Shown in pieces: positions 2,850 to 10,256 of a DNA stretch of 37,721 nt. Source of the stretch: a virus. Its lineage: Duplodnaviria > Heunggongvirae > Uroviricota > Caudoviricetes. A model generated the notes under the pieces. It was not told the origin of the DNA, made no database searches, and was given only the letters and a program-made list of their open reading frames with translations. Where the stretch lies: IMG/VR virus record IMGVR_UViG_2778261460_000005, positions 1 through 37,721 of that record. One strand, written 5' to 3'. The translations under genes were made by a program, and so were the position numbers. How positions within the stretch are numbered: position 1 is the stretch's first letter; each line of letters opens with the position of its first letter.

Positions 2850-3099
2850 GGTTACCTCTGCTTTTTGAACGCATGTCACGTAACTTCTTAATGTGTTCTG
2901 CCGTTTCGATCTCTTCTGCTATCCGATCTGCATCAGCTTTATTCACAGGTTCAAAGTCATGATTAAAGCGGAACATGCTGGCGATACATGTTCTGCCTTT
3001 TCGGATGTAGTGAACTTTGTTGTGGGTAGAACGCAGGATTTTGCAGGGAGTGCCGTGGTGGTCGACGTACCAGGTGTTAGGAAAAATGATTCTGAACAT
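2821..3099 (-). CDS. Hypothetical early-left protein (92 aa)
   Basis: ORF in the leftward operon between xis and exo; no motif recognised. Confidence 0.35.
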   Translation of the reverse strand: MFRIIFPNTWYVDHHGTPCKILRSTHNKVHYIRKGRTCIASMFRFNHDFEPVNKADADRIAEEIETAEHIKKLRDMRSKSRGNHGIIQPHTR

Positions 3100-3146
3100 T
3101 TTTACACCTCAGTTGGACGATGTTGAAATTTGCTGCTTTGAGGCCA

Positions 3147-3365
3147 TCACAATCCCCATTGTTTGTTCTTAAGTTCGATCTCCTCCTGGCAACTTGCACA
3201 AGTCCGACAACCCTGAACGACCAGGCGTCTTCGTTCATCTATGGGATCGCCACACTCACAACAATGAGTGGCAGATATAGCCTGGTGGTTCAGACGACGC
3301 ATTTTTATTGCTGTATTGCGCTGTAATTCTTCGATTTCTGATGCTGAATCAATGATGTCTGCCAT
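3147..3365 (-). CDS. TraR/DksA-family C4 zinc-finger protein (72 aa), lambda Orf73-like
   Basis: CxxC...CxxC pattern (CCECGDPIDERRRLVVQGCRTCASC) at C-terminus and size typical of phage TraR homologs. Confidence 0.7.
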   Translation of the reverse strand: MADIIDSASEIEELQRNTAIKMRRLNHQAISATHCCECGDPIDERRRLVVQGCRTCASCQEEIELKNKQWGL

Positions 3366-6702: not shown

Positions 6703-6900
6703 AAAGAAGATTTCCAATAATCAGAACAAGTCGGTTCCTGTTTAGTTACGAGCGACATTGCTCCGTGTATTCACTCGTTGGAATGAATACACAGTGCAGT
6801 GTTTATTAGTATGCCTGTCTTTTAACCACATCAGGCTCGGTGGTTCTCGTGTACCCCTACAGCGAGAAATCGGATAAACTATTACAACCCCTACAGTTTG

Positions 6901-7452
6901 ATGAGTATAGAAATGGATCTACTCGTTATTCTCGGACGAGTGTTCAGTAATGAACCTCTGGAGAGAACCATGTATATGATCGTTATCTGGGTTGGACTTC
7001 TGCTTTTAAGCCCAGATAACTGGCCTGAATATGTTAATGAGAGAATCGGTATTCCTCATGTGTGGCATGTTTTCGTCTTTGCTCTTGCATTTTCGCTAGC
7101 AATTAATGTGCATCGATTATCAGCTATTGCCAGCGCCAGATATAAGCGATTTAAGCTAAGAAAACGCATGAAGATGCAAAACGATAAAGTGCGATCAGTA
7201 ATTCAAAACCTTACAGAAGAGCAATCTATGGTTTTGTGCGCAGCCCTTAATGAAGGCAGGAAGTATGTGGTTACATCAAAACAATTCCCATACATTAGTG
7301 AGTTGATTGAGCTTGGTGTGTTGAACAAAACTTTTTCCCGATGGAACGGGAAGCATATATTATTCCCTATTGAGGATATTTACTGGACTGAATTAGTTGC
7401 CAGCTATGATCCATATAATATTGAGATAAAGCCAAGGCCAATATCTAAGTAA
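6901..7452 (+). CDS. sieB: Superinfection exclusion protein B
   Basis: Membrane-type protein on the opposite strand inside the pL operon between ea10-like gene and N, as in lambda; first ATG at 6901 (the track ORF starts at TTG 6898). Confidence 0.75.
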   Translation: MSIEMDLLVILGRVFSNEPLERTMYMIVIWVGLLLLSPDNWPEYVNERIGIPHVWHVFVFALAFSLAINVHRLSAIASARYKRFKLRKRMKMQNDKVRSVIQNLTEEQSMVLCAALNEGRKYVVTSKQFPYISELIELGVLNKTFSRWNGKHILFPIEDIYWTELVASYDPYNIEIKPRPISK

Positions 7453-7776
7453 CTAGGTAAGAGGAATCGATTTTCCCTTAATTTTCTGGCGTCCACTGCA
7501 TGTTATGCCGCGTTCGCCAGGCTTGCTGTACCATGTGCGCTGATTCTTGCGCTCAATACGTTGCAGGTTGCTTTCAATCTGTTCGTGGTATTCAGCCAGC
7601 ACTGTAAGGTCTATCGGATTTAGTGCGCTTTCTACTCGTGATTTCGGTTTGCGATTCAGCGAGAGAATAGGGCGGTTAACTGGTTTTGCGCTTACCCCAA
7701 CCAACAGGGGATTTGCTGCTTTCCATTGAGCCTGTTTCTCTGCGCGACGTTCGCGGCGGCGTGTTTGTGCATCCAT
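7453..7776 (-). CDS. N: Antitermination protein N (107 aa)
   Basis: MDAQTRRRERRAEKQAQWKAANPLLVGVSAKPVNRPILSLNRKPKSRVES... arginine-rich motif; start at internal ATG 7776. Confidence 0.9.
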   Translation of the reverse strand: MDAQTRRRERRAEKQAQWKAANPLLVGVSAKPVNRPILSLNRKPKSRVESALNPIDLTVLAEYHEQIESNLQRIERKNQRTWYSKPGERGITCSGRQKIKGKSIPLT

Positions 7777-8225: not shown

Positions 8226-8249
8226 AAAACCCGGCTCGGTGGCCGGGTT
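8226..8249 (-). terminator. Intrinsic terminator downstream of the cargo gene (lambda-conserved hairpin)
   Basis: Minus strand AACCCGGC-CACCGA-GCCGGGTT hairpin followed by U-rich TTTCTTTG; a similar hairpin sits left of rexB in lambda as I recall. Confidence 0.55.
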
Positions 8250-8256
8250 GATGGGA

Positions 8257-9114
8257 TTATCGTTTATTTCTTTGATGTTTCTTTGCAGACTCAGCTTGAG
8301 TGTTTCCATACCTGCGTTTACCGCTATTGTTTTTTCCTCTAGGCTTGCCTTTTTTTCGATCTTCCCACCAGTCAGGTGCCGGGTCTGGCTCAACATGTAA
8401 AGCATCGGCAAGTCCTGATATCAAGCTGTATGACTGAACTCCATCAATGTGCTCTGACAGTGATGGGGTAACATTCTGTCTTAGTGGATCAAGAATAAAA
8501 TCAATACCTTTAATTCTGGCGTGTTTGGCGGCAGGCACAAAGTCTGAGTCCCCAGCAACAAGGACAATTACATCAACAAGTTTTTCATAAGCTAAAGTCG
8601 TGATATCCATCCCTAGCTTGATATCAACTTGTTTTTGTTTGATGTCATAGTAAAAATCATCATTTGTCAGTTCATCCCATTTTTTCGTTCCTTTCATCAG
8701 AGCATCAAGGGAGAATGTAGTTAGTTGCCATCGCTTATTATCAACAAGATTCCCTAATCTTAAGGCTGTTTTTCGAGTTTTTCTTAACTCTTCATGCAGC
8801 TCCGTTCTCAGAATATATGATTTTTCGAGTTTGAAATTCTTGCGACCAGGCGTCTTATTGCCAGGCTCAGGAAGTGGAAGGCGTGTTTGAATGTCGAGTG
8901 GTGGACAGTCATAGAAGTAAATTCTATAAAGCTCAAGCGGTTCCCTACGTTCTTGTGATTGACGTTTTCCATTAAGATGGGAAAGAACCATTGACCATAT
9001 TACTTTCATTATGCATTGCGCAGTCAGTTCATGCTCGGCGAAGTGTTTACGATGCGTAGCATGAACACGCTGCATGAAAAAACCCGCATCAATTAAAATT
9101 GCTGCTTTCTTCAT
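8257..9114 (-). CDS. Predicted NYN/LabA-like (PIN-fold) nuclease with basic C-terminal tail, 285 aa; occupies the rexAB position
   Basis: Motifs AAILIDAGFF (N-terminal Asp) and VIVLVAGDSDFVPAAKHARIKGIDFIL typical of LabA/NYN domains; C-terminus RKKGKPRGKNNSGKRRYG...KKHQRNKR; located between cI and OL. Confidence 0.75.
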   Translation of the reverse strand: MKKAAILIDAGFFMQRVHATHRKHFAEHELTAQCIMKVIWSMVLSHLNGKRQSQERREPLELYRIYFYDCPPLDIQTRLPLPEPGNKTPGRKNFKLEKSYILRTELHEELRKTRKTALRLGNLVDNKRWQLTTFSLDALMKGTKKWDELTNDDFYYDIKQKQVDIKLGMDITTLAYEKLVDVIVLVAGDSDFVPAAKHARIKGIDFILDPLRQNVTPSLSEHIDGVQSYSLISGLADALHVEPDPAPDWWEDRKKGKPRGKNNSGKRRYGNTQAESAKKHQRNKR

Positions 9115-9120
9115 AAGAGT

Positions 9121-9183
9121 CCCAAAAAAATAGCCCAGAGCCGTTATGCAGATATTAACAATTGTCTGCGAACGGGGCTGGGC
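9121..9183 (-). other. Leader stem-loop plus U-tract between promoter-like element and cargo gene start (terminator or attenuator-like)
   Basis: Minus strand GCCCAGCCCCGTT...AACGGCTCTGGGC imperfect hairpin with nested GCAGA/TCTGC stem, followed by TATTTTTTT ending 9 nt before the ATG. Confidence 0.4.
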
Positions 9184-9194
9184 TTGGTTTAATT

Positions 9195-9223
9195 AATCTA
9201 TGCCAAGTTGACTGTGCCGTCAA
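9195..9223 (-). promoter_or_regulatory. Putative sigma70 promoter TTGACG-N17-TAGATT overlapping a 5-bp inverted repeat
   Basis: Minus-strand -35 at 9218-9223 and -10 at 9195-9200; inverted repeat TTGAC-N6-GTCAA at 9208-9223. Confidence 0.35.
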
Positions 9224-9241
9224 CATAAAACTTACTTCCTA

Positions 9242-9958
<717 letters not shown>

Positions 9959-9965
9959 TTAAATC

Positions 9966-10031
9966 TATCACCGCAAGGGATAAATATCTAACACCGTGCG
10001 TGTTGACTACTTTACCTCTGGCGGTGATAAT
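9966..10031. promoter_or_regulatory. OR3-OR2-OR1 operators with divergent pRM/pR
   Basis: TATCACCGCAAGGGATA, TAACACCGTGCGTGTTG, TACCTCTGGCGGTGATA; pR -35 TTGACT (10003-10008) and -10 GATAAT (10026-10031). Confidence 0.85.
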
Positions 10032-10046
10032 GGTTGCATGTACTAA

Positions 10047-10256
<210 letters not shown>

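What the first reader, a model, noticed from the sequence alone, without database searches (positions are those of the whole stretch)
9115..9241. Promoter-like element with inverted repeat, then a long stem-loop plus U7, all packed into the 127-bp leader of the NYN gene
On the minus strand, directly after the cI stop, there is TTGACG-N17-TAGATT whose -35 overlaps a perfect TTGAC-N6-GTCAA inverted repeat (9208-9223). It is followed by an extended imperfect hairpin (9133-9183, with a nested GCAGA/TCTGC stem) and TATTTTTTT that ends only 9 nt before the start codon. A promoter followed by a terminator-like structure ahead of the ORF suggests conditional expression (attenuation or antitermination), or insulation from cI read-through. 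This leader is unlike the lambda cI-rexA junction as I remember it.
Basis: partly seen in the sequence, partly recalled or inferred. Interest (0 to 1): 0.5.

Follow-up and report, generated by a model that had tools for sequence, protein, structure and literature searches.

The report
Conserved hairpin RNA gene preceding NYN nuclease
The 127-base spacer between the prophage repressor gene and an NYN nuclease gene is a small promoter-plus-hairpin RNA unit that accompanies NYN nuclease genes in at least seven bacterial phyla, is in no RNA database, and has been copied on its own by lytic phages, which suggests an undescribed RNA-protein pair, possibly a toxin-antitoxin-like phage defence.

Summary
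In detail: TTGACG-N17-TAGATT (9223-9195), TTGAC-N6-GTCAA (9223-9208), a three-part hairpin (9184-9132, -25 kcal/mol, z = -5.6), U7 (9130-9124), then ATG 9 nt later.

The hexamers alone are no better than chance. The evidence is conservation.
- The unit precedes NYN homologues from E. coli to Pseudomonas, Acidobacteriota, Bacteroidota and Verrucomicrobiota.
- 41 of 44 distinct upstream regions have TTGAC[A/G/T]. The -10 mostly ends 8-13 nt before the stem.
- 14 of 17 pairs show compensatory changes. 95% of cells pair, against 24-44% in slid controls.
- Loop bases AU..UUA are 96-100% conserved.
- Two covariance models hit 56 of 80 genome loci, always sense-strand and just upstream of the gene.
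- Rfam and the searchable literature have nothing.

The module (9241 to about 8250) replaces lambda rexAB up to tIMM. No promoter fits after the U-tract, so NYN mRNA must come from read-through.

Two virulent Chaseviridae phages carry only the stretch from about +1 to the U-tract, where sister phages have a tRNA-like gene.

Best reading (0.55): a ~63-nt RNA that is its own terminator and the specific partner, probably inhibitor, of the NYN RNase. This resembles type III toxin-antitoxin logic, but two defining features are not met.

The function is inferred. No transcript or phenotype data were available.

The parts
9242..9955 (-). Lambda-type cI repressor gene. This is context only. Its stop codon (9244-9242) is the left edge of the inserted module.
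   Evidence: ORF list. Pfam HTH_3 plus Peptidase_S24. Homology to lambda and to other cargo-bearing prophages ends at the stop codon.
9218..9223 (-). -35 hexamer TTGACG of the module's own sigma-70-type promoter.
   Evidence: TTGAC[A/G/T] is present at the equivalent place in 41 of 44 distinct upstream regions of NYN homologues.
9208..9223 (.). Perfect inverted repeat TTGAC-N6-GTCAA overlapping the -35 and the spacer. It is a candidate operator, and the binding factor is unknown.
   Evidence: The same repeat with unrelated spacers is in Tatumella L008, Yersinia L009, Pseudomonas-type L150/L152 and P. wadenswilerensis L087. An N9 version is in L120/L121/L124/L126.
9195..9200 (-). -10 hexamer TAGATT, 17-nt spacer from the -35.
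   Evidence: Across lineages the -10-like hexamer mostly ends 8-13 nt before the stem.
9186..9189 (-). Predicted transcription start (about 9188). This is inferred, not mapped.
   Evidence: It lies 6-9 nt after the -10. Covariance model R1 matches 9188-9123. The copy in Chaseviridae phages begins here (query 58 = 9188).
9132..9184 (-). Three-part RNA hairpin: stems of 7, 5 and 5 bp, a 2x2 internal loop, a bulged C, and a 12-nt loop CAAUUGUUAAUA. It is both the body of the predicted ~63-nt RNA and the terminator stem.
   Evidence: Fold -25 kcal/mol, z = -5.6. 95.4% of cells paired, and 14 of 17 pairs with compensatory change. RNAalifold gives the same structure. Loop AU..UUA is 96-100% conserved.
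9124..9130 (-). U7 tract, completing an intrinsic-terminator-like signal. It is the predicted 3' end of the small RNA.
   Evidence: A run of 4-9 T follows the hairpin in 55 of 56 distinct upstream sequences.
9115..9123 (-). GGGACTCTT, holding a weak Shine-Dalgarno-like GGGA. It is the only sequence between the U-tract and the ATG, too short to hold a promoter.
   Evidence: In other lineages the distance from T-run to start is about 8-30 nt.
8257..9114 (-). NYN-domain (LabA/MARF1-like) nuclease gene, 285 aa. It is the protein partner of the RNA.
   Evidence: Pfam PF01936, 36.8 bits against a cut-off of 24.2. phrog_5783, unknown function. AF2 model pLDDT 85. Best PDB match is the MARF1 NYN domain 5yaa, target TM 0.69. 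More than 7000 homologues.
8228..8249 (-). Terminator hairpin homologous to lambda tIMM. It is phage backbone and marks the right edge of the insert (about 8250).
   Evidence: Terminator scan. Alignment with the lambda rexB-to-PL interval shows homology resuming at AACCCGGCC.

Best explanation
The leader is a small-RNA gene that forms a two-part mobile module with the NYN gene. The module was inserted in place of rexAB between cI and tIMM.

Shown by sequence and comparison:
- A conserved sigma-70-type promoter places +1 about 4 nt before a covarying three-part hairpin.
- The hairpin is followed by a U-tract, so the hairpin is also the terminator.
- The NYN ribosome-binding site and ATG follow within 9 nt and no promoter fits there. 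NYN can therefore be translated only from transcripts that read through the hairpin.

Inferred:
- Most initiations end at U7 and release a ~63-nt RNA in excess over NYN mRNA.
- NYN recognises this RNA sequence-specifically through the conserved loop and bulge bases.
- Most likely the RNA holds the nuclease inactive, like an antitoxin. When transcription is shut off or RNA is degraded during phage infection, the nuclease would be freed to cleave RNA and abort the infection. This is the logic of type III toxin-antitoxin/abortive-infection systems.
- The inverted repeat on the -35 would be an operator for feedback control.
- The hairpin also stops cI read-through.
- Lytic phages that copied only the RNA would use it as a decoy.
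For: - Module boundaries. Lambda and other cargoes diverge exactly at the cI stop. Lambda homology resumes at tIMM. Stx2a phages carry the whole unit behind a different gene.
- Promoter. TTGAC[A/G/T], a 16-18 nt spacer and a -10 occur in 41 of 44 distinct upstream regions. The -10 mostly ends 8-13 nt before the stem.
- Structure. 95.4% of cells are paired, against 24-44% when the partners are slid. 14 of 17 pairs have compensatory changes. RNAalifold independently gives the same structure. G-U pairs and the much weaker reverse-strand scores (81 vs 25 bits) fix the strand.
- Not a generic terminator. Unpaired positions are about as conserved as paired ones (1.21 vs 1.33 bits). Loop A28, U29, U33, U34 and A35 are 96-100% conserved and bulge C20 is 91% conserved.
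- Linkage. Model R1 hits upstream of every NYN gene in the genome loci with at least ~47% protein identity. Model R2 hits 44 distant loci. All hits are sense-strand and just upstream of the start, with none elsewhere in 0.5 Mb. Together that is 56 of 80 genome loci. 55 of 56 IMG/VR pattern hits and 12 of 12 metagenome hits are NYN-linked.
- No other conserved neighbour gene.
- Only 8-30 nt lie between the U-tract and the start.
- Evidence for action in trans. Chaseviridae BSBP01 and 2KOFFS carry only the stretch from about +1 to the U-tract at 98% identity, in the slot where sister phages have a tRNA-like gene. Lambdoid contig L216 has it at the tR' position next to tRNA-Arg.
- The architecture matches the published type III layout of promoter, RNA, terminator and nuclease (PMC5086642). 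Phage capture of antitoxin RNA is a documented escape route (PMC3475682, PMC5086642).
- The NYN fold has conserved Asp residues D9, D69, D164, D170, D189 and D191.
Against: - There are no experimental data. No transcription start, 3' end or small RNA has been mapped.
- The O157:H7 copy is not among the 63 Hfq-bound orphan RNAs of strain Sakai. Term-seq supplements were not available.
- NYN toxicity, RNA binding and anti-phage activity are untested. PADLOC gives only weak NYN-domain hits. A different NYN protein, HEC-09, gave no defence in published tests.
- Classical type III antitoxins are tandem repeats processed by the toxin. This RNA has no repeats and one copy per locus.
- Orphans are rare: 2 phage genomes, 1 viral contig and 1 doubtful scaffold. 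In both clear contexts the hairpin could simply be serving as a terminator.
- Related sequences inflate shuffle-based covariation statistics. The slid controls and the number of independent pair types mitigate this but are not a phylogeny-aware test.
Confidence: 0.55

Rival explanations
1. The element acts only in cis, as a throttle and insulator. The hairpin/U7 is a strong constitutive terminator. It stops cI read-through and lets only a trickle of transcripts from the module's own promoter reach a potentially harmful nuclease gene. As a 5'-terminal stem-loop it may also protect the read-through mRNA from decay. The released short RNA would have no function.
For: - The stem plus U7 looks like a terminator.
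- There is no room for another promoter.
- In L216 the hairpin occupies the tR' terminator position. In Chaseviridae it lies between gene blocks.
- No RNA-protein binding has been shown.
Against: - If insulation were the aim, the terminator would sit upstream of the promoter. The conserved order is promoter then terminator.
- Generic terminators do not keep loop and bulge bases at 91-100% identity between genera whose NYN proteins share only about 50% identity.
- The diverged class keeps an invariant internal loop, GUA..G on one side and CCGA on the other.
- Lytic phages copied exactly the stretch from +1 to the U-tract into a slot for a stable-RNA gene.
Confidence: 0.25
2. The leader is an autoregulatory site. 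The NYN protein binds or cleaves the hairpin at the 5' end of its own read-through mRNA, or stabilises the terminator. It may also bind the TTGAC-N6-GTCAA repeat on the DNA. Either way it limits its own synthesis, and the RNA has no role as an inhibitor of enzyme activity.
For: - Conserved loop and bulge bases imply protein recognition.
- The inverted repeat over the -35 recurs in independent lineages with different spacers.
- The module travels with no other protein that could supply a regulator.
Against: - It does not explain the stand-alone copies in phages that lack NYN.
- The inverted repeat is absent from many lineages that keep the hairpin, for example the Pasteurellaceae type.
- The protein shows no recognisable DNA-binding domain.
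Confidence: 0.12
3. The terminator is a conditional sensor. It is read through only when an infecting phage modifies RNA polymerase (antitermination) or perturbs termination factors. That switches on the nuclease as a suicide response.
For: - The gene lies strictly behind a terminator.
- The module sits in a prophage slot used for exclusion genes, replacing rexAB next to sieB.
Against: - There is no nut- or qut-like element and no alternative structure. The transcript starts at the foot of the stem.
- The same design occurs in many non-phage chromosomal contexts and many phyla.
- It does not need, and so does not explain, the conserved loop sequence.
Confidence: 0.05
4. Nothing special is here: a chance promoter-like match plus the ordinary terminator of the cI transcript.
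For: - A 9/12 promoter match is expected by chance. The scan found 3 sites, and shuffles average 6.1.
Against: - The whole leader is foreign to lambda.
- It travels with the NYN gene behind unrelated upstream genes.
- The promoter position, the inverted repeat, the stems and the loop are conserved across genera and phyla.
Confidence: 0.03

Closest known systems
Type III toxin-antitoxin / abortive-infection systems (ToxIN, CptIN, TenpIN)
   Same: One promoter, then a non-coding RNA, then a Rho-independent terminator, then an endoribonuclease gene. The terminator sets an excess of RNA over protein. These systems are mobile, carried by phages and plasmids, and defend against phages. Phages escape by acquiring the RNA (PMC5086642, PMC3475682).
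   Different: The RNA here is a single non-repetitive hairpin that is itself the terminator, not a tandem array of 2-5.5 repeats followed by a separate terminator. The protein has an NYN/PIN-like fold, not the ToxN/CptN/TenpN families. Toxicity, processing and neutralisation are untested.
Lambda rexA-rexB with tIMM (the genes this module replaces)
   Same: The same slot between cI and tIMM/PL, where a prophage expresses exclusion functions during lysogeny.
   Different: There is no sequence or domain similarity. rexAB is co-transcribed with cI from PRM with no intervening terminator. Here a promoter and a terminator are placed between cI and the cargo.
Short RNAs made by a promoter-proximal terminator in lambdoid phages (PR'-tR' 6S RNA; StxS of Stx phages)
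   Same: A constitutive promoter followed closely by an intrinsic terminator yields an abundant short RNA. The downstream genes need read-through (PMC7547250, abstract seen). In contig L216 the NYN-type hairpin sits at exactly this position.
   Different: Read-through at tR' is driven by the Q antiterminator acting at the promoter. No such factor or site is evident here. StxS acts by base-pairing with Hfq, and the NYN hairpin was not among the Hfq-bound RNAs in Sakai.
Phage morons (autonomous promoter-gene-terminator cassettes in prophages)
   Same: A foreign unit with its own promoter, inserted between genes that are adjacent in related phages. Different cargoes occupy the same junction.
   Different: The terminator-like element lies between the promoter and the ORF, not after it. 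The downstream terminator is the backbone tIMM.
PADLOC candidate HEC-09 (NYN-domain protein embedded in Hma systems)
   Same: A bacterial NYN/MARF1-like putative RNase proposed as a defence gene. It is the best PADLOC hit, though weak: E = 2e-4 over 46 residues.
   Different: HEC-09 has an N-terminal helix-turn-helix-like region plus a C-terminal NYN domain. No RNA partner is reported for it, and it gave no protection in the published assay.

Membership tests
Type III toxin-antitoxin system | Single promoter, RNA gene, Rho-independent terminator, then a downstream nuclease ORF (PMC5086642) | tested here: met
   The order -35/-10 (9223-9195), hairpin plus U7 (9184-9124), ATG 9114. It is conserved across lineages. 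This is sequence-level evidence only.
Type III toxin-antitoxin system | The antitoxin RNA is a tandem array of direct repeats that the toxin processes into units | tested here: not met
   No direct-repeat families in 9100-9260. There is a single covariance-model hit per locus.
Type III toxin-antitoxin system | The toxin belongs to the ToxN/AbiQ, CptN or TenpN families | tested here: not met
   The only Pfam hit is NYN PF01936. PADLOC returns only weak NYN-domain hits. The fold matches the MARF1 NYN domain.
Type III toxin-antitoxin system | The protein is toxic and is neutralised by direct binding of the RNA | not testable with these tools
   This needs expression, binding and phage assays.
Intrinsic (Rho-independent) terminator | A stable G+C-containing stem-loop followed immediately by a U-run | tested here: met
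   -25 kcal/mol hairpin, one A, then U7. The consensus scanner missed it only because its loop limit is 8 nt.
Intrinsic (Rho-independent) terminator | Transcript 3' ends at the U-run in vivo | not testable with these tools
   No Term-seq data were reachable.
Sigma-70 promoter | -35 and -10 hexamers 17 +/- 1 nt apart | tested here: met
   TTGACG-N17-TAGATT scores 9/12. That is not above chance alone, but it is conserved in position in 41 of 44 distinct upstream regions.
Sigma-70 promoter | A mapped transcription start site | not testable with these tools
   No dRNA-seq or 5' RACE data were found.
Attenuator or riboswitch leader | Mutually exclusive terminator and antiterminator structures, or membership of a curated cis-regulatory RNA family | tested here: not met
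   Only about 4 nt precede the stem in the predicted transcript, and one hairpin dominates the fold. No Rfam match at E <= 1 in the window or E <= 0.1 in 12 loci.
Phage moron | A foreign ORF inserted between genes that are adjacent in related phages, with its own promoter | tested here: met
   Junctions lie at the cI stop and at tIMM. The promoter is as above.
Phage moron | Its own terminator downstream of the ORF | tested here: not met
   The downstream hairpin 8249-8228 is the lambda tIMM homologue, which is backbone.
NYN / LabA-like nuclease (the downstream gene) | Pfam NYN domain above the gathering score, and a PIN-like fold with conserved acidic residues | tested here: met
   PF01936 scores 36.8 bits against a cut-off of 24.2. 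D9, D69, D164, D170, D189 and D191 are invariant in 23 homologues. The model matches the MARF1 NYN domain 5yaa.
Lambda RexA/RexB exclusion system | Homology to rexA or rexB | tested here: not met
   There is no DNA similarity after the cI stop. The protein is NYN, not Rex.

The most novel reading that the evidence does not exclude
The hairpin RNA and the NYN nuclease form a new, very widespread class of RNA-protein toxin-antitoxin / abortive-infection module. A single non-repetitive hairpin is at once the antitoxin, the transcription terminator that sets its own excess over the toxin, and the 5' end of the toxin mRNA. The protein family has more than 7000 homologues in at least seven phyla. 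Prophages carry the module in the rexAB slot to exclude other phages. Lytic phages (Chaseviridae) and some lambdoid phages have stolen the RNA alone as an anti-defence decoy, swapping it into tRNA or tR' slots.
Probability: 0.35. Interest if true: 0.9.

Novelty: new variant of a known kind. Interest (0 to 1): 0.78.

Why it matters
If the RNA partners the nuclease, it defines an uncatalogued structured RNA family that is absent from Rfam 15. It would also give the large, uncharacterised bacterial NYN/LabA-like protein family its first functional handle.

It would extend RNA-antitoxin (type III-like) logic to a new nuclease fold and to a minimal single-hairpin antitoxin that doubles as its own terminator.

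It would explain what lambda-like and Stx-converting prophages of pathogenic E. coli carry in place of rexAB. The hairpin is in 275 of 5426 complete E. coli genomes, including O157:H7.

It would also provide a natural example of a lytic phage replacing a tRNA-like gene with a captured host-defence RNA.

All of this can be tested directly with a handful of clones and phages that already exist.

Tried and rejected
- **Rfam.** Permissive thresholds found nothing at the element in the window or in 12 related loci.
- **Literature.** Searches for NYN with phage defence, non-coding RNA, type III TA, small RNA, prophage and anti-phage found no description. One paper reading failed on a term that was too short.
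- **EHEC transcript evidence.**
  - The Sakai/EDL933 copy (301,818-301,890, minus strand) is not among the 63 Hfq-CRAC orphan sRNAs.
  - The Term-seq paper has no supplements held.
  - Locus-tag searches were uninformative.
- **A promoter inside the hairpin loop** (TGTTAATAT as an extended -10). I rejected this because the final T of the hexamer is a covarying stem position, which is C in Pseudomonas.
- **An integron attC-like or other DNA hairpin.** I rejected this. The T-run and the promoter are always on the NYN sense strand. G-U pairs occur only on that strand. Reverse-strand model scores are far lower.
- **A conserved second protein gene.** None was found. The only recurrent 'neighbour' is an antisense shadow ORF inside the NYN gene.
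- **Further orphan copies.**
  - The E. albertii-type variant found nothing in phages.
  - The Pseudomonas-type variant found only one unverified scaffold, cut by the contig end, and only NYN-linked viral contigs.
  - The metagenome scan returned 12 of 12 NYN-linked hits.
- **Defence libraries.** PADLOC and NCBIfam gave only sub-threshold NYN-domain hits.
Full report
**Setting.** The window is a lambda-immunity lambdoid prophage. On the minus strand it has, in order:
- N (7453-7776)
- PL (8032-8004; TTGACA-N17-GATACT)
- an NYN-domain gene (8257-9114)
- a lambda-type cI (9242-9955)

PR and cro are on the plus strand (10003-10031 and 10056-10256), and a sieB gene is at 6898-7452. The finding concerns the 127 nt between the cI stop and the NYN start.

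**Check of the observation.** Every element is present at the stated place:
- TTGACG (9223-9218), 17 nt, TAGATT (9200-9195)
- the perfect inverted repeat TTGAC-N6-GTCAA (9223-9208)
- a hairpin with three stacked stems (9184-9178/9138-9132, 9175-9171/9145-9141, 9169-9165/9152-9148) and a 12-nt loop
- A, then T7 (9130-9124)
- nine bases, then the ATG at 9114

On its own the promoter match (9/12) is not better than chance. The scan found 3 such sites in 3 kb, where shuffles give 6.1. The hairpin is clearly non-random: -25.0 kcal/mol, z = -5.6, and 0 of 200 shuffles as stable. The terminator scan missed it because it allows loops of at most 8 nt. Rfam has no match.

**The leader belongs to the NYN gene, not to the phage.** Lambda's cI-rexA spacer has a similar length but is unrelated from the first base after the stop codon. 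Another E. coli prophage with the same cI carries a different cargo that also starts right at the stop codon. Lambda homology resumes at the tIMM terminator hairpin (window 8249-8228). The inserted unit is therefore 9241 to about 8250, a precise replacement of rexA-rexB.

In about 48 Stx2a-converting phages the same unit lies behind an unrelated gene downstream of a 933W-type repressor. There it still carries the last 18 nt of lambda cI and the tIMM region, so it was moved recently as a block.

**The design is conserved far beyond E. coli.** The NYN protein has more than 7000 homologues. I fetched 80 genome loci and 79 viral loci and read the sequence upstream of the start codon.
- Of 56 distinct upstream sequences in the closer set (protein identity 45-100%), 55 have a hairpin of about 50 nt followed by 4-9 T, 8-30 nt before the start.
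- In 41 of 44 distinct promoter regions there is TTGAC[A/G/T], a 16-18 nt spacer and a -10-like hexamer. That hexamer mostly ends 8-13 nt before the first paired base. Two of the three exceptions contain TTGACG by eye.
- The flanking sequence is otherwise unrelated between lineages. The promoter is therefore under selection, and it places +1 about 4 nt before the stem.

**The hairpin is a real, strand-specific RNA structure.** I aligned 23 distinct elements from Enterobacterales, Pasteurellaceae, Pseudomonas and Acinetobacter.
- 95.4% of cells form standard pairs, against 24-44% when partners are slid by 1-3 columns.
- 14 of 17 pairs show changes on both sides. No shuffle reaches the observed values.
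- RNAalifold predicts the identical structure without being told it.
- G-U pairs are tolerated on the NYN sense strand. A covariance model built from the alignment scores 63-84 bits on that strand and at most 29 bits on the other.

**It does not behave like a generic terminator.** Unpaired positions are about as conserved as paired ones (1.21 vs 1.33 bits). Loop bases A28, U29, U33, U34 and A35 are 96-100% identical and a bulged C is 91% identical, while the stems change by compensation.

**Distant homologues keep a diverged version.** Homologues at 40-45% protein identity come from Alpha-, Beta- and Gammaproteobacteria, Acidobacteriota, Bacteroidota, Verrucomicrobiota, Elusimicrobiota, Rhodothermales and a Bacillota MAG. 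They have an 8-bp outer stem that covaries (7 of 10 pairs), a nearly invariant internal loop (GUA.G on the 5' side, CCGA on the 3' side), an inner stem-loop and a U-run.

A second model built from these hits 44 loci. Every hit is on the sense strand directly upstream of the NYN start, and there are no hits elsewhere in 0.5 Mb. The two models together detect the RNA in 56 of 80 genome loci. Most of the rest, mainly Bacteroidota, show a further variant by eye. None of these variants is in Rfam.

**The module is just RNA plus NYN.** All-against-all comparison of neighbouring ORFs in the 80 genome loci finds no second conserved gene. There is one copy of the RNA per locus and no direct repeats in the leader.

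The protein model is confident (pLDDT 85). Its best solved relative is the MARF1 NYN ribonuclease domain. Six aspartates are invariant in the family alignment. PHROGs lists the family as of unknown function. PADLOC and NCBIfam give only weak domain-level hits.

**Consequences for expression (inference from the anatomy).** Only 9 nt in the window, and 8-30 nt elsewhere, separate the U-tract from the start codon. No promoter can sit there, so NYN mRNA must arise by read-through of the hairpin terminator. The transcript starts at the foot of the stem, so nothing upstream can form an antiterminator. Classical attenuation is therefore not available.

If insulation from upstream transcription were the purpose, the terminator would be placed before the promoter, but the conserved order is the opposite. 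The simplest reading is that the promoter mainly produces a ~63-nt hairpin RNA and that a minority of transcripts continue into NYN. In this prophage the same hairpin should also end the cI transcript, which in lambda runs on through rexAB.

**Stand-alone copies.** A blastn search with the leader found the stretch 9188-9126 alone, at 98% identity, in two virulent Chaseviridae phages: Escherichia phage BSBP01 and Shigella phage vB_Shi_2KOFFS. The model scores them at 72 and 69 bits.

Alignment with the sister phages SA91KD, TH24 and phiEcoM-GJ1 shows what happened. The element (ACCAAGCCC...GGGCTATTTTT) matches the predicted transcript from about +1 to the U-tract. It came with no promoter and no NYN gene. 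It replaces a ~92-nt tRNA-like gene in an otherwise collinear region upstream of a small ORF and the Rz genes.

A pattern scan of IMG/VR gave 56 hits. 55 are followed by an NYN ORF. The exception, L216, is a lambdoid late region where the hairpin sits about 200 nt after a Q-like gene and immediately before tRNA-Arg, which is the tR' position. Twelve metagenome hits were all NYN-linked.

An unverified Pseudomonas-like scaffold (MT838212) has the promoter and hairpin in front of a non-NYN ORF, but the contig ends after 18 codons.

Two independent captures with ends that coincide with the predicted RNA ends argue that the RNA is a discrete functional unit. They also argue that it can be useful without the nuclease gene.

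**Most likely mechanism.** I favour a two-component RNA-protein module (confidence 0.55). The hairpin RNA is made in excess because it is its own terminator, and it is the specific partner of the NYN RNase. It most likely keeps the nuclease inactive until infection shuts off its synthesis. The inverted repeat would provide transcriptional feedback.

This matches the published logic of type III toxin-antitoxin/abortive-infection loci: promoter, RNA, Rho-independent terminator, endoribonuclease. There the terminator sets the stoichiometry, and phages escape by acquiring the antitoxin RNA (PMC5086642 and PMC3475682).

It is not a member of that family. The RNA is not a tandem repeat array, and the protein is not ToxN, CptN or TenpN.

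What is shown: the conserved promoter geometry, the covarying structure, the conserved loop, the obligatory read-through, the exclusive linkage to NYN genes, and the orphan copies.

What is inferred: that the promoter fires, that termination is efficient, that NYN binds the RNA, that NYN is toxic or protective, and that the phage copies act as decoys.

**Rivals.**
- A purely cis-acting throttle and insulator, possibly also a 5' stabiliser, remains reasonable (0.25). It accounts for the orphan copies as borrowed terminators. It does not explain the conserved loop and internal-loop bases or the order of promoter before terminator.
- Autoregulation through the leader or the operator (0.12) is compatible with the main model and could coexist with it.
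- A terminator that senses phage antitermination (0.05) lacks any supporting sequence feature.
- The null reading of a chance promoter plus an ordinary cI terminator (0.03) is contradicted by the comparative data.

**What is missing.** I found no experimental record. The identical copy in O157:H7 Sakai/EDL933 lies in Sp1/CP-933H at 301,818-301,890, next to a truncated NYN gene, ECs_0273. It is not among the 63 Hfq-bound orphan RNAs of Tree et al.. Term-seq tables were not available. Full-text searches returned no paper linking NYN genes to an upstream RNA or to prophage defence. The only tested NYN defence candidate, HEC-09, has a different architecture and was inactive.

**Verdict.** The explanation is different and larger: the leader is one instance of an uncatalogued structured RNA that accompanies NYN nuclease genes across bacteria. 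I rate it a new variant of a known kind (type III-like RNA-protein modules), with interest 0.78.

Noticed in passing
L005 3001-3065 (Escherichia phage BSBP01), L007 3-67 (Shigella phage vB_Shi_2KOFFS), compared with L168 845-939, L169 664-755 and L170: In the sister Chaseviridae phages, the slot taken by the hairpin holds a ~92-nt tRNA-like gene. It is annotated tRNA-Arg 'may contain an intron'. ARAGORN calls it Leu(cag) in GJ1 and Ser(gct) in SA91KD, and does not call it at all in TH24. It is an odd tRNA-like gene of unclear identity.
   Followed up: partly
L216 3563-3699 (IMGVR_UViG_3300011920_000033): A lambdoid late region with the NYN-type hairpin at the tR' position, about 200 nt after a Q-like gene and abutting tRNA-Arg(tct). 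The contig is only 5.3 kb, so I could not tell whether the phage also carries an NYN gene.
   Followed up: partly
L228 1-300 (MT838212, unverified 'Bacteriophage sp.' scaffold): A Pseudomonas-type promoter and hairpin (98.6% identical to the P. lactis element) are followed by an ORF starting MNPGLNPAGPSYGIIPQV, which is not NYN-like. It is cut by the contig end. The protein partner may have been swapped here.
   Followed up: partly
L227 / L167 (O157:H7 Sakai and EDL933, record 301,423-301,890, minus strand): The degenerate prophage Sp1/CP-933H keeps the promoter and hairpin 100% identical, but its NYN gene is truncated to 129 aa (ECs_0273). The hairpin is in 275 of 5426 complete E. coli genomes, while the near-full query is in only about 74. 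Most carriers therefore have the RNA with a broken nuclease gene.
   Followed up: partly
L002 2500-3585 and 4455-6021 (Stx2a phage Stx2_EH0505): The module in Stx2a-converting phages carries 18 nt of the lambda cI 3' end and the lambda tIMM region, showing it came from a lambda-immunity phage. Nearby are an IS3-family insertion and a duplicated repressor fragment, and a second hairpin copy lies elsewhere in the record (H212).
   Followed up: no
window 9178-9207: A second palindrome, CTTGG-N15-CCAAG, brackets the -10 hexamer and the predicted +1. It is kept in the close E. coli-type relatives (L094, L095, L102, L106) but not in more distant lineages.
   Followed up: partly
L095, L102, L104-L107, L109, L138, L009 (about 31 nt upstream of the main -35): Several lineages have a second TTGAC[A/T] about 31 nt upstream of the promoter's -35. 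It might be a tandem promoter or a further binding site. It is absent from the window, where the cI stop lies only 18 nt from the -35.
   Followed up: no
A4 columns 10-16 and 54-58 (distant NYN loci L026-L087): The invariant internal loop of the diverged class (AGUA.G opposite CCGA) resembles a bulged-G (sarcin-ricin / loop E) module. This comparison is from memory only and I did not test it.
   Followed up: no
window 8228-8249 compared with L001 (lambda tIMM): The tIMM hairpin differs from lambda's only in the loop and the loop-closing positions (CCACCGAGCC against CCTCAGCGCC). The stem and the T-rich tail are identical.
   Followed up: no
L014-L087, about 2950-3250, minus strand: A long antisense open frame inside the NYN gene recurs in 41 loci. 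It is most likely a shadow ORF of the conserved G+C-rich coding sequence rather than a gene.
   Followed up: no
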